Source: a virus
Taxonomy: Duplodnaviria; Heunggongvirae; Uroviricota; Caudoviricetes
Virus record (IMG/VR): IMGVR_UViG_3300029080_000078
Strand: one strand, 5' to 3'
Length of the DNA: 15,570 nt
The notes beneath the pieces are model-generated. The model saw only the letters and a program-made list of their open reading frames with translations. It ran no database searches and was not told the DNA's origin. Each line of letters starts with the position of its first letter. Position 1 is the first letter of the stretch. This document shows positions 1,285 through 15,570 of this stretch, in pieces. A program made the position numbers and the translations under genes.

Positions 1285-1885
1285 AATTCACAGGTGTTTT
1301 TTCCCATCCTGTGGTTTCCTTGGCGTTTTCTAGGTTTTTTCAGATAGTTGCATTTTTTAAAAAGCATCCTAAGTTCGATCTCAGTGTCTATCTGGGGCCT
1401 ATTTCTGTCCCATATATGCCCCAAAAAGACTCCCAACAGATAAGTAGTTTTTCATGGATTTACGCGTAAAATCAATAACGGCTGGAAATCATTCAATACT
1501 CGCACTATCGAAAAATTTACCAGCCAACCGCAGCACGTTCTTGCATAAGGCGTGTCTGCGGTTTTTCAACTATTCAGATACATCACTCCCATCACATTCA
1601 TTCCTCCGCATCAAAGGCATATAGGCTATATCACCTTGATATTTTTCTTCTTCAGATAAAAATTGTTATCTATGTATACTTTTAAACCCAATCCGTGTAG
1701 AGTCTCTGCATAAGATAGTTTGCAGTTGCCGCTTCAGCTTGCGCCATAAACCGCCTGATTTTTGCTGCCACCTGTTAGCATTCCTGTATACCTGAAACGA
1801 CAATGTTTATCTACGAACTTTAAGAACACCCAAGATAAAAATTGTCAACTATATCATATATAACACATTACTAATTCGAGGCTAT

Positions 1886-1999
1886 ATGAACAGCATACTG
1901 ATAATCACTTCTCTCCTTATCATATTCAGCATTTTTAGTCATGCCCTAATAAAATTAGGGATTGGCATATCCAATAACCCAGACAAAACCGATGTATAA
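1886..1999 (+). CDS. candidate small hydrophobic ORF (37 aa, [37 protein letters not shown])
   Basis: ATG at 1886 preceded by a GAGG Shine-Dalgarno-like motif; strongly hydrophobic N-terminal 20 residues. AT-rich context makes a chance ORF plausible; no homology known to me. Confidence 0.2.
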
Positions 2000-2067
2000 G
2001 CCAACATATCCTGAATCAGACATACAATATCGCAATGAAAATCAATAATATTTTAAGGAATATCTTC

Positions 2068-2301
2068 ATGAAATCAAAAGACACCCTAAAGTGGTTCCCT
2101 GCGCAGCTTCCTGAAGTAAGAATTATCCTAGGGGATGCTGTAGTGGAAGTAGCAAAACAGGGAAGACCTATCAATACCAGAACATTGCTTGATTACATTG
2201 AAGGAAACATAAAGAAAAAATCATGGCTGGATAACAAAGAATTATTACAAACAGCGATATCAGTTCTTAAAGACAACCAAAATTTAAATGGTAAAATGTA
2301 A
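2068..2301 (+). CDS. ydfK: small prophage protein of the YdfK/YnaE family (77 aa), reported as cold-shock inducible
   Basis: ATG at 2068 with AAGGAA 7 nt upstream; 77 codons, matching the recalled length of K-12 YdfK; sits next to the pin invertase as ynaE does next to pinR in Rac. Confidence 0.8.
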   Translation: MKSKDTLKWFPAQLPEVRIILGDAVVEVAKQGRPINTRTLLDYIEGNIKKKSWLDNKELLQTAISVLKDNQNLNGKM

Positions 2302-2617
2302 TATAATAAACTTACTTTTTTATCATTTTTCCACTTTAACAACATTTTGCTCCACTTTTCCACGACCAAACAACTTGAAATCTGGTTAAAATAACACGCA
2401 ACACTATTCTTCTTCCTTGAGTCCGCCCGGAACTCGAAAAACAAACCGAGTTAAAGCCATTTTTCACAAAATCGATTTTGGGTCTCACCAAAATTACGGG
2501 GTTGCATACGCATTCGTTTATTTTCGAACGTGTACATACAAATATGCACAAAAATAATCAAAATTATTTTCTGAGATGCATTATGATATGAACACCAATT
2601 TCGTATAGAGTCTCACT

Positions 2618-3208
2618 ATGTCTCGAATTTTTGCTTACTGTCGGATATCAACGCTGGATCAGACCACCGAAAATCAACGCCGGGAAATCGAAAGTGCAGG
2701 TTTTAAAATCAAACCTCAGCAAATAATCGAAGAACACATTAGCGGCTCAGCAGCAACCAGTGAGCGTCCTGGTTTTAACCGGTTGCTTGCTCGCCTGAAA
2801 TGTGGTGATCAATTGATTGTGACAAAACTGGATCGCCTTGGTTGTAATGCAATGGATATCAGGAAAACAGTGGAACAACTGACCGAAACAGGTATCAGAG
2901 TGCATTGCTTAGCATTGGGGGGCATTGACCTGACCAGTCCAACAGGAAAAATGATGATGCAAGTAATTTCAGCAGTCGCTGAATTTGAACGAGACCTTTT
3001 ACTTGAACGCACTCATTCCGGGATAGTAAGAGCCCGCGGCGCAGGGAAACGTTTTGGTCGACCACCTGTGTTAAATGAAGAACAGAAACAGGTGGTATTC
3101 GAACGAATTAAGTCAGGTGTAAGTATAAGTGCCATTGCCCGGGAATTCAAAACCTCGCGGCAAACCATTTTAAGAGCCAAAGCAAAACTTCAGACACCTG
3201 ACATATAA
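2618..3208 (+). CDS. pinQ: serine recombinase, Hin/Gin/Cin/Pin-family DNA invertase
   Basis: 196 aa; N-terminal catalytic motif YCRISTLDQ (active-site Ser), resolvase core domain, C-terminal helix-turn-helix ([21 protein letters not shown]). Adjacent to tail-fibre genes as expected for this family. Confidence 0.92.
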
Positions 3209-3305
3209 AAAATAATCTCGGTGTGAGATGCTTTACGTCTTCCAAGCCCCCTTCCTTGCCGTAAATGGAAAGATACATCTAATTATAGAATTTATATGTT
3301 TTACC

Positions 3306-3881
3306 CTACGGCAGTGCTGGCCATTCAATATCCTGTGCAGTTGACGTATCAACACGGTTCAGCAATACCCGATACTTTTTCCATGCTTCCAGCAACGAGA
3401 TTTCTTCCTCCGTTGCAATTTCCAGATCTGCAGCATCCTGAAGCGGCGCAATATGCTCACTGGCTACCTGCATCAGGTTGTTTTTTGTTTCTTCCGCCTC
3501 CCGGATCCGGAACAGTTTTTCTGCTTCCGTATCCTTCACCCAGGCTGTGCCGTTCCACTTCTGAAACTCCCCTTCCGGGGATAACCAGGTGACATTTTCC
3601 GGTAATGGGCCAAGTTCAGAAATAAATAACGCGTCGCCGGAAGCCACGTCATAGACGGTTTTACCCCGATGATCTTCAACGAGATGCCACGATGCCTCAT
3701 CACTGTTGAAAACAGCCACGAAGCCAGCCGGAATATCTGGCGGTGCAATATAGGAACTGTTTGCTGGCAGACCTGTATGAGGCGGAATATATGCGTCACC
3801 TTCACCAATAAATTCATTAGTTCCGGCCAGCAGATTATAAATTTTTATGGTCCGTGGTTGTTCACTCATTCTGAATGCCAT
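3306..3881 (-). CDS. tfaQ: tail fibre assembly protein (Tfa)
   Basis: 191-aa ORF immediately downstream of the side-tail-fibre ORF; its ATG overlaps the stf stop (TAATG); length matches recalled TfaQ. Confidence 0.85.
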
Positions 3882-4735
3882 TATGCAAGCCTCACAATGT
3901 AGTTAAATGCGATGTTTTTGACGGTGTTTTCCGCGTTACCAGCAGCGTTAACGGTGATGGTGTGTCCATGTGAGCCAATCGCAACAGAGTGCGTATGAGC
4001 ACCAATACCGACAGTATGTGCGTGAGCACCTGCAGATGCAGCTGTGCCGCTGACACTATGAGTGTGCGCTCCTGCAGCACTTGTATTCACACTGGCCGCA
4101 GACACTACCTTATGTACTGACCCATTTTGTGACCACTGGCTGATTGCTGATGCGCCTGTGACACTATGAGTATGGTTTCCGGCACTTGCGGCTGTACCGC
4201 TCACACTGTGCGTATGCGCCCCGGTGTTATTCGTGGATTTAGTGCCGTAATCAAACGACGATGTGGTTTTCGTCCCCAAATCCGTACTGGATGCGCTGGC
4301 GCTGTGGGTGTGCGATTTAATGCCGTCCTGTTCCTGAGACAATACGGCCCGACCACTGGCAGGTTTGCCCTTAATCGTCCAGCCACGCATATCAGGGATC
4401 ACGCCTGACGGATAAGCGGCTGCAAGTTTCGGGTAAGCAGATTTGTCAAAAGTCTGCCCCTGCATCAGGGCATAACCAGACGGAACGGTATCTGATGGCC
4501 ACGGGATTGGTGCACCGACTGGATAAAACTCTGCAGGAGGATGAGCCGAGGTGTAAAGCTGCGCCCACGGCGACCAGTTTGCGTCGGTCGTATCCCGTCG
4601 TGAACGAATAAATGCCGGAGCATGAGCACCGCTTGTACCACTCCAGCCGATGAGTAACTCACCTTCGCCAACGGCTGTCATCCCTTTCAGGTGAATGATA
4701 TTTCCATACGCTGTTGGATATCCGTTGTTATACAC
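3881..4735 (-). CDS. stfQ: side tail fibre protein, C-terminal fragment (N-terminus deleted)
   Basis: 284-aa ORF rich in G/S/T/A with repeated [15 protein letters not shown] motifs typical of phage fibre C-terminal domains; upstream reading frame closed at 4736, where it abuts an unrelated protease fragment. Confidence 0.75.
3950..4320 (-). repeat. tandem His-rich repeats (HTHS / [14 protein letters not shown]) inside the stfQ coding region
   Basis: Peptide motif HTHS occurs at least five times; the nucleotide sequence shows direct repeats such as gacactatgagt and gctgt(g/a)ccgct. Confidence 0.55.
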
Positions 4736-4785
4736 CTCGTATAACTCAAGACCTGCTGCCCCCTGCGTATTGTCTGTCAGCGCGG

Positions 4786-5547
4786 CTAACGCCCGCCAAA
4801 CATGGCAAACAGATCATTAATACCGTTTGCACGCGCTTTTTGCTCTGCCAGTACCTGCGCACGGATACTGTTTTCATCCACCACGGGTGCTGCTGCCTGC
4901 ACTGGCGTCCGGGAGGCTGCAGGTTCATCATCCTGTACGCGTGGAGCACTGTTGCGTGGCGGAGTAATCATGTTTCGAATGGATTCCGGCATCTTTTTAA
5001 ATTCCTCTGTACGTTTTGACTGAATACATGCCATTGCCTTAACGGCTGGTGTCACCTGATCAGCAAATCCCTGTGCCAGACATTCGGCACCGGACATCCA
5101 GGTCTCATCCGCCAGCATGGCAGCAATTTCATCGGTGGTTTTCCCGGTTTTCTGTGCATAAGCGGGTAACAGAACCGCCTCAACTTTATCGAGCAGGTCG
5201 GCATAGGTGCGCATGTCCTCCGCATCACCGCCCGTAAATCCAAATGGTTTATGAATCATCATGAAGGAGTTTTCCGGCATAATGACCGGGTTTCCCACCA
5301 TCGCAATGACCGACGCCATTGACGCCGCCACACCGTCGACATAAACGGTAATGGACGCACCATGTGTTTTCAGTGCATTAAAAATGGCGATGCCTTCAAA
5401 GACATCGCCACCCGGTGAATTAATATGGAGATTAATGTGGGTGATAGCTGGCCGGATCAATTCGCTGGCTCTCCCCGTCGCAGTCACTGCGCAATGACTG
5501 CGTGATGTTGTAACGATCAATAATCCAGCGTTCGCCACGACTGCCAT
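4786..5547 (-). pseudogene. prohead protease fragment (ClpP/S49-like serine peptidase), lacking native start and C-terminal part
   Basis: Translation contains the protease core (RPAITHINLHINSPGGDVFEGIAIFNALK ... ASMASVIAMVG). The 5' end of the ORF overlaps the terminase fragment in another frame, and the ORF ends just before the stf fragment. Confidence 0.65.
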
Positions 5548-6832
5548 AGCCCGTTACCTGAACCACAAAACGGCGATGACGTCCCGCCTGCACATCCACT
5601 GTCGCCACAAGGAAATTAATGCCATCCGGCACACTGCGGGAAGGAACTGGCTCTGCCCGCTGCTCAAGCAGTTCACTTTTTCGTTGCTCCATGCTGGCAC
5701 GAGGAAGATAAGGCAATCCCCAGTCGGTGTTGATAACCGCCCTGAGTGTTTCTTCGCTTCCTGTCGCTTCATACTCCTGTTCTGCAGTCAGTAATTTGTA
5801 AACCAGTTGCGCCCAGGTCTGATACGCAGCAGCTGGCCCTTCCATCCAGAAACTGGCGATACGGGAGCGGCGCGGTTCACCGGAAACGTTGCCGTTACGA
5901 TCAATGACCTGACCTTCACGCAACCAGACTCCAGCACTATTGAGCTCACGCTTTTTCTCCGCAGTGATAATGCCGCTGCAGTGCGGGCAAAGTAGATACG
6001 CCGCCTCACTGGCTTTAAAGGGATCCGGTTCATTACGGTAGCCGGTCATGGCATCCATGGCTGGCTGAAAATATTCACCGCAGTGCGGACATGACCAGTA
6101 CCAGCGGCGGCGGTCACCACGATTGTAAAGGGAAAGAATACCAGTCGTCGGTGGCGCTTCATGAGGCGACTTACGTCGCCATTTGCTGTCGCAGATGTCA
6201 CGTCCCGGCGAGCTCTCCACCAGAGTCATCCCGGCGGACATAAATGTGGTGGTACGTTTTGAGGCCAGGGAGAAACCATCACCCTCGCTGTCGATATTCT
6301 CCGGAAAACGGTCGTAATCGGTTAAGGCGACAAACCGGTAATCCGACGACGACATAATGTTGACCGAGGGCCAACCAATTTTAAGGAACGAGCCATCCCT
6401 GAACGTCTTATCATGGACATTATTGTCGTTACGACGTGGACTCATTCTTTTCTTTACCGCCGCACTGCTTCTGAACGTTCTGTCGAGGCGCTTTTTAGAA
6501 TGCTCGCGGGCCTTATCTTCGGTCATCTGCACAACGAGCATGTCCGAAGGATCGCAAACGATGGTATAGACAATCCATCCATCGATCAGACCAATGGTCT
6601 TCCCTGTTCGCGCAGGACCAACAAAAATCACCGCATCGTATTCACGCGATGCCAGGCAGTTCATGGGCTCAATGATGTAGGGTGTCAGTTCAGGATCCCA
6701 TGGCACCGAGTTACCAGCCCCCTTGGGAACACGCATGAATTTTTTAACAGCCTCCGAAATCGGCATGCGACGTGGTGGGGAAAATCCTGCCGATATGTCC
6801 CTTCCCAAATTTCGGGCTGATGAAAAACCCAT
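5432..6832 (-). pseudogene. terminase large subunit (GpA-like), N-terminal ATPase portion only
   Basis: ATG at 6832 with AGGAGG 4-5 nt upstream, overlapping the stop of the small-subunit gene; Walker A motif GPARTGKT; Cys motifs CPHCGEYF and CPHCSG resembling lambda gpA; length 466 aa versus about 640 aa for intact GpA, so the nuclease domain is missing. Confidence 0.7.
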
Positions 6833-6840
6833 TATTCCTC

Positions 6841-7368
6841 CTAGAGACTCTCTCCTTCCTCATCAGGAATTAATTCAGCAGCACAAGCCTCGTAGGATTT
6901 TTCCTGAAGAGTGTATCGCAGGTCATCAATTGCCTGCTGTACAACGCCGACGGCCTGAGGAGTCAGGGCGCAATCGCGTTCAAGAACATCCGGAATTGTC
7001 TCCAGAACCTGGACGACAGCCTTTCTCATGGACGAATAGACGATGACTACTTCATCAACGGGGATGAGTTTTCGCTGCTCCTTTTCCAGCTTGATCCTTT
7101 CATTTTCAGACTGGTACCAGTCCTTTCTCTCTTTCGGCTCCATACGGGATGGATCATGAACAGAGTCTGCTGCCTCATGCTTCACACTAAACAGGGCTGG
7201 CCCGACATGCTGCAGGGCGTAAACGGGGTTCCCCCTGACAGTCGCAGCCACAGGAGTGTTGGCCGCGAGAAGCCGTTTTTTTACTGTGTCCCGGTGAAGC
7301 CCAAAGGCCTCAGCGATTTTAAAAACACTCCAGTAATAAGCATCACCGATCCCGCTCACATTTGACAT
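6841..7368 (-). CDS. nohQ: terminase small subunit, Nu1-like DNA packaging protein
   Basis: ORF directly upstream of and coupled to the large-subunit fragment. ATG at 7368 (MSNVSGIGDAYYW...) has GGAG 6 nt upstream; in-frame ATGs at 7380 and 7398 lack a Shine-Dalgarno. Placed downstream of a cos-like site as in lambda. Confidence 0.8.
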   Translation of the reverse strand: MSNVSGIGDAYYWSVFKIAEAFGLHRDTVKKRLLAANTPVAATVRGNPVYALQHVGPALFSVKHEAADSVHDPSRMEPKERKDWYQSENERIKLEKEQRKLIPVDEVVIVYSSMRKAVVQVLETIPDVLERDCALTPQAVGVVQQAIDDLRYTLQEKSYEACAAELIPDEEGESL

Positions 7369-7547
7369 AAGCAACTCCATCTGGCAGGTGAAAATCATGT
7401 TTATTTATATATTTCAATTAATTGTAAACTGGTCTAATGACAGGGAGAAAAAAATATTGTACAGGTAAAAAGAGAAATAACTTTTAATTATCAATAAATT
7501 ACCAAACATGCTGCCGCCGCCATGGAAATGCAAAAACTAGCCTTTTT

Positions 7548-7564
7548 CCGCGACGCTCCCGCCC
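7548..7564 (-). other. cos-like site (putative cosN region) upstream of the terminase genes
   Basis: Minus-strand sequence GGGCGGGAGCGTCGCGG lies about 185 bp upstream of the Nu1-like start and resembles the lambda left cohesive-end region (GGGCGGCGACCTCGCGGG, from memory). Locally GC-rich island in an AT-rich intergenic region. Confidence 0.35.
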
Positions 7565-7744
7565 CGTGGCAGGGGCCCCCACCGGGAGGACCCGACAGCC
7601 TGACAGCCGTGACGAGCATCTGATACAGCGCTTTACATAATGGCATAGGAATAATTCAGAAGGACATCACAGCATGCCCACACAAATTAGTGTGAGTGTC
7701 CTGTTTCTTCCTACGCACAGGACTGACGAGCATGAGGGGAAAAT

Positions 7745-7912
7745 ATGCGAACCATAAATGCCTCATCTTCAGCAATGCAGCCGGCATCCGAACAGGACGA
7801 TATTGTAAATTCACCTAATTACGAGGACATTGCAGTAGTTGAATTGCAGCTCTGTATTAGCCTGACAGTGACAGAATGCGATATTGACTCTGTCACAGGT
7901 GAAATAGTTTGA
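7745..7912 (+). CDS. candidate small acidic protein (55 aa, MRTINASSSAMQPASEQDDIVNSPNYEDIAVVELQLCISLTVTECDIDSVTGEIV)
   Basis: ATG at 7745 with GAGGGG 5 nt upstream; the frame is closed by a stop 10 nt before the ATG; below the ORF-track length cutoff. Confidence 0.3.
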   Translation: MRTINASSSAMQPASEQDDIVNSPNYEDIAVVELQLCISLTVTECDIDSVTGEIV

Positions 7913-7932
7913 ATGATTAGCAGTTATGGTGC

Positions 7933-8139
7933 TCAGTCAACCACCAGGGAATAATCCTTCGAATTCTTATCGTGCTTCACCAACGCTGCCTCAATTGCCC
8001 TGAATGCTTCCAGAGACACCTGATGTTCTATACATGCAATTACAACATCCGGGTAACTCATAGAAATGGTGCTATTAAGCATATTTTTTACACGAATCAG
8101 ATCCAACGAGAGTTCATCAGCAGATTGTTCTTTATTCAT
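7933..8139 (-). CDS. small hypothetical prophage protein (68 aa)
   Basis: ATG at 8139 with GGAG 7 nt upstream; convergent with the 55-aa ORF. May correspond to K-12 ynfO, but I cannot confirm this. Confidence 0.5.
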
Positions 8140-9502: not shown

Positions 9503-9620
9503 GATGGTGTTAACTCCAGTCATCGCTGGCACTACCACTGCTGGTTCAGAGTTAAAAAAAACTATGATTTTTTTCATGATGTTACCGTAGTATGTGAGTA
9601 TCCATCGAATAGATACCAAG

Positions 9621-9642
9621 CAAAAAAGCTCCCGAAGGAGCC
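9621..9642 (-). terminator. intrinsic terminator (minus strand), about 210 nt downstream of cspI
   Basis: Stem GCTCC / GGAGC with loop CGAA, followed immediately on the minus strand by UUUUUU (plus-strand A run at 9622-9627). Confidence 0.5.
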
Positions 9643-9848
9643 TTCATTTTCACTTTTTTAAATCCAACGACAGACGGCTGGCATTTAAGTATTGTGAAAT
9701 ATTATCAAATGTAATCATCATTGATTTACAAAAGATACATTTTGCCCCGAAAGGATTCATGTCAGAAACATCAAAAGATGATGTTCTATACTGGGAACCA
9801 TGACAACACGGGCATCTAAAGTGAATATGGTTTGTAATATTGTCTACC

Positions 9849-11452: not shown

Positions 11453-11736
11453 ATATATTTATGATGAGGACGCTCGTGCTTATTGGCAGGATTTTCAATC
11501 TTAAAGGAGTACTGATGCTGCAGATAAGACTCAACTTTTTCTGACAATTTTTCTGCTACTTCCAGGAAGACTTGCCGGACGCTCCTTCTGGCTGCTGCCT
11601 CATAAAACTCCAGCGCAGCTCCTTCAACACGGTCCATGGCGACATCCAGGTCAAAAATTTCACCGTCAAAGCGTTCTTTGTCCTGTAAGGCTACAGTTAC
11701 CGTAACTTTATTCTCAAAATTACGGACTCCTTTCAC
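11449..11736 (-). CDS. ydfR: hypothetical protein sitting between holin and endolysin (DUF1327-like as recalled)
   Basis: 95-codon ORF with an apparent GTG start; its stop overlaps the rrrQ start (ATGA), suggesting translational coupling. Start codon uncertain. Confidence 0.7.
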
Positions 11737-11764
11737 AACCAGTTCATAGTCTTGAGTCGTTGGA

Positions 11765-11980
11765 TTACTCTCCTCTCGCAGCCTTACGCCTGTCTTCTTT
11801 AATCTTGAAATAAAGATTTGTCAGATACGTCAGCAGGCCAAAAACCAGGCTACCCAGCACACCGATTGCAGCCCACTGTGACGGAGTTACTTTATCGAGT
11901 AACTGCAATGCCCAGAAACCAGCATTACCCGCCGATGTGCCATAGGCAACACCTGTTGTTAACTTATCCATTGATTTCAT
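11765..11980 (-). CDS. essQ: class II holin, phage-21 S (pinholin)-like, with dual-start motif
   Basis: 71 aa, [71 protein letters not shown]: two transmembrane segments, a Met1-Lys-Ser-Met4 dual start and a charged C-terminus; closely resembles the S21 pinholin as I recall it. Confidence 0.9.
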
Positions 11981-12199
11981 ATCCTCACCCCGATGTACAC
12001 GGATGGTGCAATATGTTTGAAAAGATCGGAGTCTACGGGGTAGTTTTGACAGCACACGCTGTTCTCAACGGCGCTAAAGAAACATACACATTAAAAATGT
12101 GAGTAATTATTTTGAAAGAAAGTCATATATAAAATAATAATACGAGAAATGTTTTCATATTTAGTGTACTGTATACGGCCATTTATACAGGAAAAGCCT

Positions 12200-12370
12200 A
12201 TGTCAGAACGTAAAGACTCAAAATCACGCCGTAATTATCTCGTTAAATGTTCCTGCCCAAACTGCACCCAAGAGTCAGAACACAGTTTTTCAAGAGTACA
12301 AAAAGGTGCCCTTTTGATCTGCCCTCATTGCAACAAAGTATTCCAGACAAATCTTAAAGCTGTAGCCTGA
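12200..12370 (+). CDS. candidate small zinc-ribbon protein (56 aa, C-x-C-x2-C ... C-x2-C)
   Basis: ATG at 12200 with AGGA 7 nt upstream; MSERKDSKSRRNYLVKCSCPNCTQESEHSFSRVQKGALLICPHCNKVFQTNLKAVA has four or five Cys in a ribbon-like arrangement. May correspond to a small protein found in K-12 by ribosome profiling (uncertain recall). Confidence 0.5.
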   Translation: MSERKDSKSRRNYLVKCSCPNCTQESEHSFSRVQKGALLICPHCNKVFQTNLKAVA

Positions 12371-12424
12371 TTGATTTTATTAGTAACAAGTATTTTTTAT
12401 ATTTTAATAATATATTTAAAGCAG

Positions 12425-12452
12425 ATAATAAAAAACCCGCCTGAGCGGGTTT
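12425..12452 (-). terminator. intrinsic terminator (minus strand), about 280 nt downstream of cspB
   Basis: 8-bp stem aaacccgc / gcgggttt with loop ctga, followed on the minus strand by UUUUUUAUUA; nearly the same stem sequence as the hairpin at 13755-13778. Confidence 0.55.
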
Positions 12453-12733
12453 GAGATTGTGGTGCTTTTTGTGGGAGTCATCCACTTACGCACTTTGTTT
12501 TGCCATGCCAGCAGTTAGCTTCTGCTGTAAAACTATTCATGCAGCAAACCTGCACTTCACCACAATGGTTAGCATACTTTTCCTGATTAAGATTTTGCCA
12601 AATATGCTGGCCATTGTTTCATGTATTGGACCTCCTTAATTTTTATTAAAGAAATCCAATATTCACTACTCTGTCCGTATCTCTACTCAGGCATCAGCCT
12701 TCTTCGTTATCGTATACAGACGAGCGATGAATT

Positions 12734-12949
12734 TTAATCAGTAATGATGACATTTGCTGCTGCAGGACCTTTAGCACCACTCTCTATAGAGAAGGTAACC
12801 TTTTGACCTTCAAATAAGGTTCGATAATTATCATTCTGAATCGCAGAAAAATGCACAAACACATCTTTACTACCATCAACAGGAGAAATAAAGCCGAAAC
12901 CTTTATCAGCGTTAAACCATTTTACTAAACCAGTCATTTTATTTGACAT
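12734..12949 (-). CDS. cspB: cold-shock protein, CspA family
   Basis: 71 aa, [38 protein letters not shown]... Confidence 0.95.
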
Positions 12950-13249
12950 TCTACATTCCTTAACTTGAGCCTTTCGGCATAAATGGTTTGCATAACAGAA
13001 ACGACTTCGTACTTAATTGGAGAGACTCAAAGAAGGAATAAGTGAATAACACCTGAAATGAGAACTGCTTTAGTAAACTACTTCGTATATCGTCTGTTCT
13101 TCAAACCGACGCAATCATTAACGCATAGTTGAACATATGAAGCAATGTTTATTTTAGACATCCAGCCATCTTCAACCCCATCAAAAAACTATAGCTTTCT
13201 TCAGGAACGTGTGTATAGTGCGCCAAGTTATCAGTATTAAGGAATTTTT

Positions 13250-13462
13250 TTGTCCCGTAAAATGACAGGAATTGTCAAAACCTTTGACGGCAAAAGCGGC
13301 AAGGGTCTTATCACCCCATCCGATGGTCGTATCGATGTCCAGCTTCATGTTTCAGCGCTCAATCTCCGCGATGCAGAAGAAATTACCACCGGATTACGCG
13401 TGGAATTTTGCCGGATAAATGGTCTGCGTGGCCCTTCAGCTGCCAATGTTTACCTTTCATGA
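13250..13462 (+). CDS. cspF: CspA-family protein, divergent member
   Basis: 70 aa from a TTG start at 13250 ([13 protein letters not shown]...); AAGGAA 6 nt upstream; cold-shock-domain fold with a degenerate RNP1 motif. Confidence 0.9.
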
Positions 13463-13516
13463 GCTATATTAAAGCTTTAATTTCAGGCCCCATCGGATCA
13501 CACATGGAGAGTTTTT

Positions 13517-13606
13517 ATGAATAACCCCGTCTGTCTTGATGACTGGTTGATTGGCTTTAAAAGCTTATGCTGTACTTTGGCCGTAATAGCTCTGCTAATA
13601 ATATAA
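13517..13606 (+). CDS. candidate small ORF (29 aa, [29 protein letters not shown])
   Basis: ATG at 13517 with GGAG 7 nt upstream; hydrophobic C-terminal half; lies in the long 3' region of cspF ahead of the terminator hairpin. Could be chance. Confidence 0.2.
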
Positions 13607-13754
13607 TAAGCAGACTCATTGTGTTTAGGGACATTGTACTGGAAGAAAACATTTTAAACATCAGGCAAATAACCAAGTCACCAGCTAAATAATAAGTTAA
13701 CAGACATGAGTCCCGGGATGAGATTCAACATTACCATTGCCCCATTTAAAGCAC

Positions 13755-13790
13755 AAAACCCGCTCATCAGCGGGTTTTCTACTTTTTCTT
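13755..13790. terminator. strong hairpin, likely a bidirectional intrinsic terminator between cspF and quuQ
   Basis: Perfect 10-bp stem aaaacccgct / agcgggtttt with loop catc (13755-13778); followed on + by CUACUUUUUCUU and on - by GUGCUUUAAAU. Confidence 0.55.
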
Positions 13791-13823
13791 AACGTCGGGT
13801 ATACAAAGCCCATCGTTGAAAAA

Positions 13824-13852
13824 ATTTTATCCATATTTTTTGAAAAATGCAA
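13824..13852 (-). promoter_or_regulatory. candidate sigma-70 promoter immediately downstream of quuQ (pR'-like position)
   Basis: Minus strand: -35 TTGCAT (13852-13847), 17-bp spacer, -10 TAAAAT (13829-13824). It sits between the Q stop and the hairpin at 13755-13778, where a lambdoid late promoter and Q-utilisation site would be expected. Confidence 0.3.
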
Positions 13853-13883
13853 ACATCATGTCGCCATCTTCAGCAAAAATCAT

Positions 13884-14636
13884 TTATCTCGTCACCTTCC
13901 TCAATTGTGCTTCCGCGTATGCTTCTTCCTGCCAGCACTTTGTTACCAGTTTACCAATGACGTCCGCATACCCCTTATACCACTGATAATCGGTCAGGTC
14001 TGGTACCAGCTTCTGGACATGACGTCGTGCCAGCGTGGTCGGTAAACGACTAAACCGGTTTCCATTACAACGCCCACAAATCTTATATACCGGTACGCCA
14101 TGAAACCGGGTTCTTTTTTCATCCAGAACAATCCCTTTACCCTTACACCCTCTGCACGCTGTGCTGGCTTCGCCCTTACCATGGCAATGCTGACATAGTT
14201 CCTTCACCCATTCTTCCTTGATTACAGATTCCCCGCGTCTGTAGTGTTTCACCACTTCGCGCAATACATTATAAAATCCCGTACCTGAACAATGCTCACA
14301 GCGAGCTTTACTTGCCGCAGACCTGGAGTAATCAGCAAAGGCAAAACTCACGAGGTAAGGAATAATCTGTAACCGGATTTCTTCACTCAATTTGTTCAAT
14401 GTCGGGTTATCCAGTGCCATCGCGTAATTTAGCAGGCCTTCAATCGCAAACTGAGGGTCCTGAACACCAACTTTTGCCAGAAATAAGGCCAACCCAAGTG
14501 GTGCTTTCGACTGCACCATCCCCTGCGCTGCCATTACATCCGTAATTGTTAAACAACCGGTGCCTGTCGCTGGAGCGTCATCGCTCAATTTTGGAGATTT
14601 TGGGGAGTAATATTTTGGTAAGGCTTCAAGGTTCAT
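13884..14636 (-). CDS. quuQ: Q-family late-gene antiterminator
   Basis: 250 aa from the ATG at 14636 (GGAG 7 nt upstream); Cys/His-rich zinc-binding region (CEHCSGTG ... CQHCHGKG ... CRGCKGKG ... CGRCNG) typical of Q antiterminators; positioned upstream of the lysis genes. Confidence 0.9.
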   Translation of the reverse strand: MNLEALPKYYSPKSPKLSDDAPATGTGCLTITDVMAAQGMVQSKAPLGLALFLAKVGVQDPQFAIEGLLNYAMALDNPTLNKLSEEIRLQIIPYLVSFAFADYSRSAASKARCEHCSGTGFYNVLREVVKHYRRGESVIKEEWVKELCQHCHGKGEASTACRGCKGKGIVLDEKRTRFHGVPVYKICGRCNGNRFSRLPTTLARRHVQKLVPDLTDYQWYKGYADVIGKLVTKCWQEEAYAEAQLRKVTR

Positions 14637-15570
14637 GCTCGTTCTCCACTTACGCCAGTACGCCAATTGCCAGCGCGCGATCGATAAAACGAAATATCAG
14701 CTCCAGTTGGGAGCCATACTTCTCTTCAAATGCCACTGTAAACCCGGTATACCCCGCCCTGCCCTCGATTCCTGGGATGCTGAATATATGCAGGAAAACC
14801 GCTGGGATGAGGCGTCTGCTTCCTTTGTCCCGGTCGAGACTGAATCCGATCCGATGAACGTCACTTTTGACAACCTAGCCCCTGAAGTACAGAACGCTGT
14901 CATGGTTAAGTTCCACACATGTGAAAACATCACTGTTGATATGGTGATTAGCGCACAGGAATTGTTGCAGGAAGACATGGCAACATTCGACGGCCATATC
15001 GTTGAAGCGTTGATGAAAATGCCAGAAGTTAACGCTATGTATCCGGAGCTTAAGCTGCATGCCATCGGGTGGGTTAAGCATAAATGTAAGCCTGGTGCCA
15101 AATGGCCCGAAATTCAGGCAGAGATGCGCATCTGGAAAAAACGTCGCGAAGGTGAACGCAAGGAAGCCGGAAAATACACGTCTGTTGTTGATCTCGCCCG
15201 CGCCAGAACCAATCAACAGCACACTGAAAATTCAACAGGAAAAATCAACCCGGTCATTGCTGCCATTCATCGCGAATACAAGCAGACATGGAAAATACTG
15301 GATGACGAACTGGCCTACGCTCTCTGGCCTGGTGATGTGGATGCCGGAAACATTGACGGCAGCATCCATCGCTGGGCAAAAAATGAAGTTATCGACAACG
15401 ACCGCGAAGACTGGAAGCGTATCTCGGCATCAATGCGCAAACAGCCTGATGCCCTTCGCTACGACCGCCAGACTATTTTTGGCCTTGTCCGTGAACGTCC
15501 GATCGACATTCACAAAGACCCTGTGGCACTGAACAAATACATTACTGAATACCTGACTACAAAGGGCGTG
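14635..15570 (+). CDS. ydfU: long ORF of unknown function, divergent from quuQ, 3' end beyond the window (partial)
   Basis: Plus frame 1 is open from 14611 to the window end (at least 312 codons from the ATG at 14635, 261 from the ATG at 14788) and codon usage is E. coli-like from about 14788 onward. All three minus frames have stops here. Missing from the ORF track only because it has no in-window stop. The gene symbol is by synteny with K-12 Qin only (gene next to quuQ), not by sequence recognition. Confidence 0.6.
   Translation, partial: MLVLHLRQYANCQRAIDKTKYQLQLGAILLFKCHCKPGIPRPALDSWDAEYMQENRWDEASASFVPVETESDPMNVTFDNLAPEVQNAVMVKFHTCENITVDMVISAQELLQEDMATFDGHIVEALMKMPEVNAMYPELKLHAIGWVKHKCKPGAKWPEIQAEMRIWKKRREGERKEAGKYTSVVDLARARTNQQHTENSTGKINPVIAAIHREYKQTWKILDDELAYALWPGDVDAGNIDGSIHRWAKNEVIDNDREDWKRISASMRKQPDALRYDRQTIFGLVRERPIDIHKDPVALNKYITEYLTTKGV

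What the first reader, a model, noticed from the sequence alone, without database searches (positions are those of the whole stretch)
12425..13790. cspB-cspF divergent module bracketed by near-identical terminator hairpins, each about 290 nt past the gene
The hairpins at 12433-12452 (aaacccgc/gcgggttt) and 13755-13778 (aaaacccgct/agcgggtttt) share the same stem core and sit symmetrically about 280-290 nt downstream of cspB and cspF respectively. The module is inserted exactly where a lambdoid genome has its late promoter between Q and the holin. This looks like a self-contained moron cassette with unusually long 3' regions that could carry 3'UTR-derived small RNAs or small ORFs (see the next finding). 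cspI likewise has a terminator about 210 nt past its stop (9621-9642).
Basis: seen in the sequence. Interest (0 to 1): 0.45.

Follow-up and report, generated by a model that had tools for sequence, protein, structure and literature searches.

The report
Two unrelated terminators flank csp genes
The two look-alike hairpins are real but are not a matched pair: one is the prophage's own late-gene terminator, the other ends the cspB/ynfU gene pair, and the long stretch after cspB holds a conserved folded RNA that appears to be undescribed.

Summary
The window is the late region of a Qin-type lambdoid prophage, 99.6% identical to E. coli K-12.

- **T2 (13755-13778)** belongs to the Q antiterminator module, not to cspF. 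Phages without csp genes (SfV, Ayreon, mEp460, Stx2c) are homologous from exactly 13755 through Q. An intact late promoter lies upstream with a lambda-identical AACGATGGG pause element. Published K-12 Term-seq places a 3' end at 13751 on the late strand and none in the cspF direction.
- **T1 (12433-12452)** lies between the convergent genes cspB and ynfU. It travels with csp genes in unrelated phages.
- **In K-12**, cspB transcripts end mainly at 12619-12621, after a different hairpin.
- **The shared CCCGC/GCGGG stem** is the commonest terminator stem in the DNA sampled.
- **The two 3' regions are unlike.** The one after cspF carries the known small protein gene ynfS. The one after cspB carries a five-helix element (12455-12620), always 3' of a cspB-type gene where that flank is intact. 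It has 11 covarying base pairs and no Rfam match.

The hairpins are ordinary. The element is the new lead.

The parts
13755..13778 (-). T2 hairpin. It is tR', the intrinsic terminator of the late-promoter leader. It is probably bidirectional and also closes the cspF-ynfS unit on the + strand.
   Evidence: Homology with csp-less phages starts at 13755. SfV and Ayreon annotate a terminator at this position on the late strand. K-12 Term-seq places a 3' end at window 13751 on the - strand in all three growth conditions. The hairpin with its flanks (13742-13792) folds at -23.9 kcal/mol on the - strand. In the csp-carrying lineage the 5' flank is A-rich, which supplies a U-tract on the + strand.
13824..13853 (-). 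Late promoter pR' of the Qin-type Q module: -35 TTGCAT (the scan matched TTTGCA) and -10 TAAAAT.
   Evidence: The promoter scan finds it. It is conserved in all Q-module relatives. Its layout matches lambda pR' when the two are compared directly.
13809..13817 (-). AACGATGGG, a -10-like element for sigma70-dependent promoter-proximal pausing, at the predicted +1 to +9.
   Evidence: It is 9/9 identical to lambda pR' and sits at the same distance, 6 nt after the -10 hexamer. The core CAAYGATGRGC is conserved across Q-module relatives. Its function rests on established lambda work, not on a test here.
13751..13817 (-). Predicted 67-nt pR'-tR' leader RNA: a 5' hairpin, an A-rich linker and the terminator.
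   Evidence: The 3' end is mapped in K-12 as an 'orphan' Term-seq end. The 5' end is inferred from the promoter. The fold is -26.2 kcal/mol, z -5.6.
13884..14636 (-). Antiterminator Q gene (quuQ/ydfT).
   Evidence: Pfam PF03589 Antiterm, E = 3.6e-54. RefSeq annotation of K-12 agrees.
12433..12452 (.). T1 hairpin. It is the intrinsic terminator between the convergent genes cspB (-) and ynfU (+). The U6 tract is on the - strand.
   Evidence: The terminator scan calls it. Folds are -12.8 kcal/mol (- strand) and -15.3 kcal/mol (+ strand). A T1-like hairpin follows the csp 3' element in Cyrano, L111, L138 and L153. In L138 it scores as terminator-like on both strands, between csp and ynfU. K-12 Term-seq shows only a weak + strand end at window 12455.
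12455..12620 (-). Conserved structured element of the cspB 3' UTR. P1 12617-12604/12575-12562; P2 12561-12558/12464-12461; P3 12555-12550/12544-12539; P4 12527-12522/12514-12509 with the invariant loop AAGCUAA; P5 12485-12481/12475-12471; invariant stretch AAAGUGCGUAAG at 12496-12485.
   Evidence: Covariance model R1 scores 144.8 bits, and this is the only copy in the window. Across 44 distinct sequences, 96% of cells are paired and 11 pairs show compensatory changes, with 0 of 500 shuffles reaching this. There is no conserved ORF and no codon periodicity. Rfam gives no hit.
12624..12661 (-). AU-rich 17-bp hairpin B, whose 3' arm contains AAGGAGG. The dominant 3' end on the cspB strand in K-12 lies just after it, at 12619-12621.
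   Evidence: Inverted repeat I6. Fold -18.0 kcal/mol. Term-seq ends at K-12 1641224 and 1641226 on the - strand, the highest read counts in this neighbourhood.
12734..12949 (-). cspB coding sequence. Its 5' UTR and CDS match the cspA thermoregulator family over 12718-13110.
   Evidence: RefSeq annotation. Rfam RF01766, 158.8 bits.
13250..13462 (+). cspF coding sequence.
   Evidence: RefSeq annotation. The cspB-cspF pair is about 77% identical to the chromosomal cspG-cspH pair.
13517..13606 (+). ynfS, a known 29-aa small protein gene inside the cspF 3' region.
   Evidence: Validated by SPA tagging in VanOrsdel et al. 2018, PMC6001520. Pfam PF23697, E = 4.7e-23.
12200..12370 (+). ynfU, a 56-aa zinc-ribbon protein gene convergent with cspB.
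   Evidence: RefSeq annotation. Pfam PF23499. It is also convergent with csp after a T1-like hairpin in L138.
12007..13754 (.). Variable cargo between the conserved tR' and the conserved holin module. It holds ynfU, T1, the cspB 3' element, cspB, cspF and ynfS.
   Evidence: The right edge is set by csp-less Q-module phages. The left edge is set by holin-only matches, query 1-307, which is window 11700-12006.
11765..11980 (-). Class II holin (essQ), the first lysis gene of the late operon.
   Evidence: Pfam PF04971. RefSeq annotation.

Best explanation
The two hairpins are two independent, ordinary intrinsic terminators with different histories and different jobs.

**T2 is tR'.** The late operon of this Qin-type prophage runs on the - strand. 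Q is followed by a constitutive sigma70 promoter, pR'. That promoter has a lambda-type AACGATGGG pause element. About 67 nt downstream lies T2, where unmodified RNA polymerase stops. Q-modified polymerase would read through T2, through the csp cargo and through T1, into the holin and lysis genes. The csp cargo was inserted immediately 3' of tR', the classic moron site. In the csp-carrying lineage the hairpin's upstream flank has become A-rich. The same hairpin can therefore also terminate the convergent cspF-ynfS transcript, making it a bidirectional terminator.

**T1 is the cspB/ynfU terminator.** It sits at the end of a long, highly structured cspB 3' UTR and faces the convergent gene ynfU. 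It is inherited with the csp gene and its 3' element, not with Q.

**The similarity is convergence.** The shared stem core reflects repeated use of the commonest enterobacterial terminator stem. The roughly 290-nt symmetry is coincidence.

**What is shown and what is inferred.** Shown here or in published data: the positions, the folds, the homology boundaries, the K-12 3' ends and the covariation. Inferred: that pR' is the source of the T2 3' end, that Q causes read-through, that T2 works on the + strand, and that the 12619-12621 end arises by cleavage.
For: **T2**
- Homology of SfV, Ayreon, Stx2c and mEp460 to the window begins exactly at 13755 and runs through Q at about 91% identity.
- SfV and Ayreon annotate a rho-independent terminator there on the late strand.
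- The promoter, leader and hairpin are conserved, and similarity stops right after the U-tract.
- Tritos and MSB1_9D delete 13453-13710 but keep T2.
- The layout matches lambda pR': the -10 hexamer, 6 nt, then AACGATGGG, 9/9 identical.
- Q belongs to PF03589.
- Term-seq 3' end at K-12 1642356 (-), which is window 13751, in all three conditions. No + strand end at T2.

**T1**
- A csp gene, the element and a T1-like hairpin occur together in the phage-plasmid Cyrano, in L111, and in L138. L138 has a lambda-type Q (PF06530), and ynfU is again convergent there.

**Shared core**
- The core is common among unrelated hairpins.
- A true terminator duplication looks different. In Ayreon the tR' hairpin recurs with 26/26 identity, loop and tail included.

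**Asymmetry of the two 3' regions**
- cspB 3' region: z -6.2. cspF 3' region: z -1.1.
Against: - No - strand 3' end was called at T1 in K-12 at 37 C. Its role as the cspB terminator is therefore predicted and supported by conservation, not observed. Cold shock, when cspB is induced, was not sampled.
- No + strand 3' end was called at T2, so its bidirectional use is inferred from sequence only.
- The 3' end at 13751 could come from read-through of Q-operon transcripts rather than from pR'. No transcription start data could be consulted.
- T1-type hairpins occur only in the phage-borne lineages of the csp element, not in the chromosomal umuC-linked ones. A phage origin of T1, even as an old copy of a tR'-type hairpin, cannot be ruled out.
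- The estimate of how common the core is comes from a sample enriched for relatives of this locus.
Confidence: 0.72

Rival explanations
1. T1 and T2 are the matched terminators of cspB and cspF and mark the two ends of one self-contained moron cassette that moved as a unit into the site of the late promoter.
For: Each hairpin has a U-tract in the direction of its csp gene. The spacing is symmetric and there is an 11-nt perfect inverted match. Both hairpins are present in all csp-carrying relatives. The divergent cspB-cspF pair is an old unit, also seen as cspG-cspH and in PHB10-type loci.
Against: T2 is present, with its flanks and promoter, in phages with no csp genes. The late promoter is intact. 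The cargo extends past T1 to include ynfU. Other members of the csp pair family (cspG-cspH, PHB10, Kosakonia) have neither hairpin at those positions. Term-seq shows use on the opposite strand at T2 and a different dominant cspB-strand 3' end.
Confidence: 0.08
2. T1 is an old, diverged copy of a tR'-type hairpin. It would have been created when cargo was stacked downstream of tR' by recombination at or duplication of the terminator. On this reading the two hairpins are related, but as phage late-operon punctuation rather than as csp terminators.
For: In Ayreon, and also in Stx2c, the tR' hairpin is exactly duplicated about 680 nt downstream. In Ayreon the two copies bracket a lipoprotein-like late-strand moron. 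This shows the mechanism exists in sister phages. T1 has its strong U-tract on the late strand. T1-type hairpins are found only in phage-borne csp lineages.
Against: T1-like hairpins follow the csp element in roughly 108-kb phage-plasmid contigs with no Q or late operon nearby. Identity between T1 and T2 is limited to the generic stem plus 3 nt. That stem is common.
Confidence: 0.13
3. The conservation of the cspB 3' region comes from a small protein gene, on either strand, and not from RNA structure. The apparent stems would be incidental.
For: The Qin-type sequence has AAGGAGG followed 8 nt later by an ATG and an 11-codon ORF, and also a Cys-rich open frame. PHB10 annotates a 41-aa ORF here. 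Antisense open stretches of 43-54 aa occur in many members.
Against: The open frames differ between lineages: Cyrano is frame-shifted and PHB10 stops early, and the antisense stretches fall in different frames. Column variability shows no 3-nt periodicity, at 0.113, 0.103 and 0.107 for the three phases. The AAGGAGG is one arm of hairpin B. Eleven pairs covary, with many G-U pairs on the csp strand only.
Confidence: 0.05

Closest known systems
Lambda pR'-tR' and its short leader transcript: lambda 6S RNA, and StxS of Stx phages (Sy et al. 2020, PMC7547250)
   Same: T2 sits just downstream of Q and of a constitutive-type sigma70 promoter with the lambda AACGATGGG pause element. It is an intrinsic terminator on the late strand. 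A discrete 3' end is seen there in an uninduced K-12 lysogen. The predicted leader has an A-rich linker followed by the terminator, a general shape also seen in Hfq-dependent small RNAs.
   Different: The leader is only about 67 nt, against 194 nt for lambda (my recollection) and 258 nt between pR' and tR' for Stx phages, with a 74-nt processed StxS. Q belongs to PF03589, whereas Pfam's other Q family, PF06530, is the one found in L138. The U-tract is short (UUUUGUGC). No Hfq binding, target or function is known for it. The prophage is cryptic.
Bidirectional intrinsic terminators between convergent genes
   Same: T1 lies between the convergent genes cspB and ynfU. T2 lies between the convergent late leader and cspF-ynfS. 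Both have A-tract/stem/T-tract symmetry. The L138 homologue of T1 scores as terminator-like on both strands.
   Different: In the K-12 data only one direction is detected at each: - at T2, and a weak + at T1.
Lambdoid morons, that is, independently transcribed cargo between Q/tR' and the lysis genes, such as stx
   Same: The position is immediately 3' of tR'. Presence varies among phages that share the same Q and holin modules. cspB has its own cold-shock 5' UTR (Rfam RF01766) and its own terminator.
   Different: The cargo consists of at least three separate transcription units on both strands, not a single promoter-gene-terminator unit.
Chromosomal cspG-cspH pair with ymcF-ymcE-gnsA, and the Qin set cspI-ynfQ-ynfR-ynfN-gnsB
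   Same: cspB-cspF is a divergent paralogue of cspG-cspH, about 77% identical over 12835-13452. All of these have long stretches 3' of the cold-shock gene that carry something.
   Different: cspG and cspI are followed by protein-coding small genes (the ymcF type). cspB is followed by a non-coding structured element that R1 does not find after cspI or cspG.
3' UTR-derived small RNAs that share the mRNA terminator (CpxQ and MalH type)
   Same: The cspB element lies between a mapped internal 3' end, which may be a cleavage site, and the terminator T1. It contains invariant unpaired stretches that could act as seeds.
   Different: No stable RNA ending at T1 was called in K-12 Term-seq at 37 C. No Hfq or ProQ data were available. 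About 190 nt with five helices is large for this class.

Membership tests
Lambdoid late terminator tR' (Q-pR'-tR' module) | Lies within a few hundred nt downstream of the Q gene, on the late strand, after a sigma70 promoter. | tested here: met
   The Q stop is at 13884, the promoter at 13853-13824, and the hairpin at 13778-13755.
Lambdoid late terminator tR' (Q-pR'-tR' module) | A promoter-proximal -10-like pause element in the initial transcribed region. | tested here: met
   AACGATGGG at the predicted +1 to +9 is identical to lambda and equally spaced from the -10 hexamer. Pausing itself was not assayed.
Lambdoid late terminator tR' (Q-pR'-tR' module) | Inherited with Q whatever the downstream cargo. 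| tested here: met
   SfV, Ayreon, mEp460, Stx2c and F1055 carry the promoter, leader and hairpin but different cargo.
Lambdoid late terminator tR' (Q-pR'-tR' module) | Terminates transcription in vivo in the lysogen. | tested here: met
   Published K-12 Term-seq shows a 3' end at 1642356 (-), window 13751, in three conditions. The promoter of origin is not shown.
Lambdoid late terminator tR' (Q-pR'-tR' module) | Read through by Q-modified RNA polymerase. | not testable with these tools
   This needs in vitro transcription or reporter assays with QuuQ.
Intrinsic terminator of cspB (T1) | A GC-rich hairpin followed by a U-tract on the gene's strand. | tested here: met
   An 8-bp stem with 5 GC pairs, then UUUUUUAUUAU, on the - strand.
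Intrinsic terminator of cspB (T1) | A transcript 3' end at the U-tract in vivo. | tested here: not met
   No - strand 3' end near K-12 1641030-1641037 in the three 37 C conditions. Only a weak + strand end at 1641060. The dominant cspB-strand end is at 1641224 and 1641226. Cold shock was not sampled and the - strand calling threshold is high.
Intrinsic terminator of cspF (T2, + strand) | A transcript 3' end after the hairpin on the + strand. | tested here: not met
   No + strand end at K-12 16423xx-16424xx. cspF and ynfS may be too weakly expressed. The sequence itself is suitable: UUUUCUACUUUUUCU.
Moron (independent cargo in a phage late region) | Variable presence between otherwise homologous phage modules, with its own promoter or regulatory leader and its own terminator. 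| tested here: met
   Cargo at 12007-13754 lies between the conserved tR' and holin. The cspB 5' UTR matches RF01766 at 158.8 bits. T1 is present.
Any described RNA family (Rfam 15) | A covariance-model match for the cspB 3' element. | tested here: not met
   No hit at E <= 1 in the window, and none at E <= 10 that reaches its family's threshold on the best-scoring member, L137. ARAGORN finds no tRNA or tmRNA.
3' UTR-derived Hfq-dependent small RNA | A stable fragment sharing the mRNA's terminator, Hfq binding, and a conserved seed. | tested here: inconclusive
   Invariant unpaired stretches exist, and an internal 3' end lies just upstream. No T1 3' end was called, and no Hfq or RIL-seq tables were available.

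The most novel reading that the evidence does not exclude
The roughly 165-nt element at 12455-12620 may be a previously undescribed family of structured RNA specific to cspB-type cold-shock genes. It was found in chromosomal umuC-linked loci (Kosakonia), in genome contigs of Kluyvera, Enterobacter and Phytobacter whose gene context I did not examine, in lambdoid prophages with two different Q types, and in roughly 108-kb phage-plasmids. It would be released from, or act on, the cspB mRNA through the cut mapped at 12619-12621. It might then work as a cis regulator of csp mRNA fate in the cold or as a trans-acting RNA. Separately, the 67-nt pR'-tR' leader that K-12 makes from its cryptic Qin prophage could be an StxS-like regulatory RNA.
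Probability: 0.5. Interest if true: 0.6.

Novelty: new member of a known kind. Interest (0 to 1): 0.35.

Why it matters
For the finding as written, the result is mainly a correction. A hairpin that looks like a gene's terminator can belong to the neighbouring phage regulatory module. Stem similarity between terminators is weak evidence of a shared origin.

The re-reading also explains an 'orphan' Term-seq 3' end in E. coli K-12. It is the tR' stop of the cryptic Qin late promoter, the same kind of transcript that yields the regulatory small RNA StxS in Stx phages.

The most useful product is the covarying structured element in the cspB 3' UTR. Cold-shock gene regulation has been studied mostly through 5' UTRs. 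A conserved 3' domain that is kept as well as the coding sequence, and that moves between chromosomes and phages with the gene, is a concrete object for testing how csp mRNA stability or processing is controlled.

Tried and rejected
- **Decayed ymcF/ynfQ-type gene after cspB.** Rejected. No nucleotide or protein similarity, and R1 finds no copy after cspI or cspG.
- **Small ORFs in the cspB 3' region.** These were the SD plus 11-codon ORF, the Cys-rich frame, the 62-aa antisense ORF at 12451-12639 and the 41-aa ORF annotated in PHB10. Rejected because the frames are not conserved and there is no codon periodicity.
- **Known RNA families.** Rfam gives nothing on the window or on the best-scoring member. 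ARAGORN finds no tRNA or tmRNA. The P2-closed three-hairpin shape resembles a cloverleaf, but the junction lengths and loops do not fit a tRNA.
- **An intramolecular partner for the invariant stretches.** No complement to AAAGUGCGUAAG or to the P4 loop occurs elsewhere in the window.
- **tRNA genes in the 1.55-kb extra segment of HannyBb.** None found.
- **Literature and data that gave nothing.** TERMITe supplements have no entries for this locus. The supplements of the RIL-seq paper PMC5145812 are not held. The dRNA-seq transcription start paper is not held. Full-text searches for a cspB 3' UTR RNA found nothing.
- **A longer inverted repeat around the hairpins, as a cassette boundary.** Only the hairpin cores match.
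Full report
**Where the window comes from.** Positions 11601-14740 are 99.6% identical to the Qin cryptic prophage of E. coli K-12. The late operon runs on the - strand.
- Antiterminator Q (quuQ/ydfT): 13884-14636, Pfam PF03589, E = 3.6e-54.
- Class II holin essQ: 11765-11980.
- Between them: ynfU (12200-12370, +), cspB (12734-12949, -), cspF (13250-13462, +) and a 29-aa ORF (13517-13606, +).
- Window coordinate plus 1,628,605 gives the K-12 NC_000913.3 coordinate. The anchor is ynfS at 1642122.

**Checking the observation.** Both hairpins are exactly where stated, and the distances are 281 and 292 nt. Each folds far better than shuffled sequence. The terminator scan calls T1 on the - strand and T2 on the + strand. 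The two are 74% identical over 23 nt, with one perfect 11-nt inverted match. The loops and flanks differ. The shared A-CCCGC...GCGGG-T core was the commonest GC-rich stem among terminator-like hairpins in the roughly 0.64 Mb of non-redundant DNA gathered here. By my reading it occurs in about 16 hairpins unrelated to T1 or T2. That sample is biased towards relatives of this locus.

**T2 is the phage late terminator tR'.**
- A search of 50,697 phage records found six with the whole Q-csp-holin region. Many more (SfV, mEp460, Ayreon, 17 Stx2c phages and others) match only from query base 2056, which is window 13755, through Q.
- Re-alignment confirms the boundary at 13755.
- SfV and Ayreon annotate a rho-independent terminator at that spot on the late strand.
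- Aligned on the late strand, all of these share TTGCAT, 17 nt, TAARAT, CAACGATGGGC, a short leader, the hairpin and TTTTGTGC. Similarity ends immediately afterwards.
- Direct comparison with lambda shows the same layout: the -10 hexamer, 6 nt, then AACGATGGG, 9/9 identical. In lambda that sequence is the sigma70-dependent pause element through which Q loads. This is established knowledge and was not tested here.
- The late promoter is therefore intact. The csp cargo sits just 3' of its terminator.
- Tritos and strain MSB1_9D have lost 13453-13710 but keep T2.

**In vivo evidence.** Supplementary file 1 of Adams et al. 2021 (PMC7815308) is held complete. It lists an 'orphan' 3' end at 1642356 (-), which is window 13751 (...GGGUUUUGUGC), in all three growth conditions. 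It lists no + strand end at T2. At T1 it lists only a weak + strand end at 1641060, which is window 12455, in the ynfU direction. It lists no - strand end at T1. The dominant end on the cspB strand is at 1641224 and 1641226, window 12619-12621, with the highest read counts in the neighbourhood. That is 113 nt past the cspB stop, just after an AU-rich 17-bp hairpin at 12661-12624. These data are from 37 C only, and the - strand calling threshold is high.

**T2 as a bidirectional terminator.** csp-less phages have GATAAGATTTAAGAACCCGCC..GAGCGGGTTTTTTTGTGCC. All csp-carrying relatives have AAGAAAAAGTAGAAAACCCGCT....AGCGGGTTTT(T)GTGCTTT. The csp lineage thus has an A-rich upstream flank, which supplies a U-tract for the convergent cspF-ynfS transcript. 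It also has a shorter U-tract on the late strand. I infer adaptation to two-way use. This was not observed directly.

**T1 belongs to the csp unit.**
- A distant search with the cspB 3' region hit Cyrano, a 108-kb phage, and PHB10.
- In each, a CspB-like gene is followed on the same strand by a homologous 3' region. In Cyrano a T1-like hairpin then follows.
- In Superficieibacter (L138) the order is a lambda-type Q (PF06530), csp, the element, a T1-like hairpin that scores as a terminator on both strands, and a convergent ynfU.
- T1 is therefore internal to a unit of csp, element, T1 and ynfU that occurs behind different Q types. It is not a cassette edge.
- The left edge of the cargo, judged from holin-only matches, is near 12006.

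**What a real terminator duplication looks like.** In Ayreon the tR' hairpin recurs about 680 nt downstream with 26/26 identity, loop and tail included. The two copies bracket a lipoprotein-like late-strand ORF. The same duplicated hairpin is present in Stx2c. T1 and T2 share much less. I keep 'T1 is an old tR' copy' as a minor rival, because T1-type hairpins were seen only in phage-borne lineages.

**The two 3' regions are unlike.**
- The cspF 3' region is not unusually structured, z -1.1. It carries ynfS, a protein validated by SPA tagging with its own Pfam family.
- The cspB 3' region folds at -102.8 kcal/mol, z -6.2.

**The cspB 3' element.**
- Pattern scans of viral, genome and metagenome collections and a covariance model, R1, recovered 83 loci with 44 distinct sequences from Escherichia, Kosakonia, Enterobacter, Kluyvera, Phytobacter, Superficieibacter and others.
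- In ten of the eleven representative loci first examined the element lay about 160-220 nt downstream of a CspB-like gene of 65-87% amino-acid identity, on the same strand. The exception, L087, has a replaced upstream flank, and L153 later showed no csp gene within 900 nt.
- The proposed structure has five helices: P1, then P2 enclosing P3, P4 and P5. It is 96-97% paired. Eleven pairs show compensatory changes. None of 500 shuffles reaches this, and slid controls give 0-4 such pairs.
- Many G-U pairs place the structure on the csp strand.
- No reading frame is conserved on either strand, and variability shows no 3-nt periodicity.
- The core is as conserved at the nucleotide level (74-83%, excluding the near-identical phage 2H10) as the adjacent coding sequence (71-84%).
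- Rfam 15 has no match. The window has a single copy, with none after cspI and none in the cspG-cspH locus.
- The element begins exactly at the dominant K-12 3' end.

**Most likely mechanism for the element (inferred).** The cspB primary transcript runs to T1 and is cut in the short single-stranded linker between hairpin B and P1. The upstream mRNA, capped by hairpin B, is stable. At 37 C the downstream element is not seen as a stable species. My estimates are about 0.45 for a cis-acting role in processing or stability, about 0.25 for a trans-acting RNA, and the rest for other roles or none.

**The cspI remark.** The hairpin at 9621-9642 lies inside the ynfR ORF (9647-9585), after the ymcF-like ORF at 9838-9653. 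YnfR was reported as cold-induced. This '3' region' is coding.

**Verdict.** The hairpins are real and conserved, but they are two ordinary terminators of different origin. The 'bracketed cassette' reading is not supported. The guess that the 3' regions carry small ORFs or RNAs is borne out. The structured cspB 3' UTR element and the Qin pR'-tR' leader RNA are the leads worth following.

Noticed in passing
window 13751-13817 (-): K-12 makes a discrete 'orphan' RNA 3' end at tR' of the cryptic Qin prophage. The predicted 67-nt leader has a 5' hairpin, an A-rich linker (AAGAAAAAGUAGAAAA) and the terminator. This general shape is also seen in Hfq-dependent small RNAs such as StxS.
   Followed up: partly
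window 12619-12661 (-): A very abundant Term-seq 3' end lies just after an AU-rich 17-bp hairpin whose 3' arm contains a perfect AAGGAGG. The apparent Shine-Dalgarno plus 11-codon ORF (MKQWPAYLAKS) is probably sequestered in the hairpin and is confined to the Qin lineage.
   Followed up: partly
L004 (Ayreon) 1816-1854 and 2490-2533; L010 (Stx2c) hairpins starting at 1822 and 2498: The tR' hairpin is duplicated about 680 nt downstream in both phages. In Ayreon, where the sequence was read, the identity is 26/26 and the two copies bracket a lipoprotein-like late-strand ORF. This is a true case of a moron flanked by identical terminators.
   Followed up: partly
L005 (HannyBb) 2742-4295; L008 (PhiR63_1) 2736-4289: These phages carry a Qin-type 3' fragment of Q with pR' and tR', then about 1.55 kb of extra DNA annotated as many 30-aa ORFs, then a second, 89%-identical Q module with a different terminator. 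No tRNA genes are present.
   Followed up: partly
window 9585-9838 (-): cspI is followed by a ymcF-like ORF that starts with ATT and so is missing from the ORF list, and then by ynfR. A GC hairpin with a UUCG loop and a U6 tract lies inside ynfR. RefSeq names the ymcF-like gene ynfQ, whereas the 2018 paper uses ynfQ for a different 37-aa ORF.
   Followed up: partly
window 13583 (-), K-12 1642188: A Term-seq 3' end antisense to ynfS appears in only one of the three conditions listed. This implies transcription past tR' or from a - strand promoter-like site at 13627-13598.
   Followed up: no
L145 (Raoultella) 4422-4625: In this member of the csp 3' element, an 8-nt unit (CCTGAAAG) is expanded about seven times around the 3' side of helix P3 and the junction before P4.
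   Followed up: no
L087 3008 region; L041: These are Qin-type elements with one flank replaced. In L087 the sequence upstream of helix P2 is unrelated, so P1 is lost. In L041 the sequence after T1 differs.
   Followed up: no
L158: A contig binned as a Veillonella parvula MAG carries a Qin-type csp 3' element at 142.9 bits. This is most likely a binning error that placed an Escherichia contig in the MAG.
   Followed up: no
window 3340-3538 (-): A full-length Rfam IS009 match (220.9 bits) lies elsewhere in the window and is unrelated to this finding.
   Followed up: no
L134 (Kosakonia) 1388-7997: This is a chromosomal arrangement: umuC, the csp 3' element, csp (-), a divergent cspF-like gene (+), then an AcrB-family gene. 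PHB10 also has a umuC gene close to its csp pair.
   Followed up: partly
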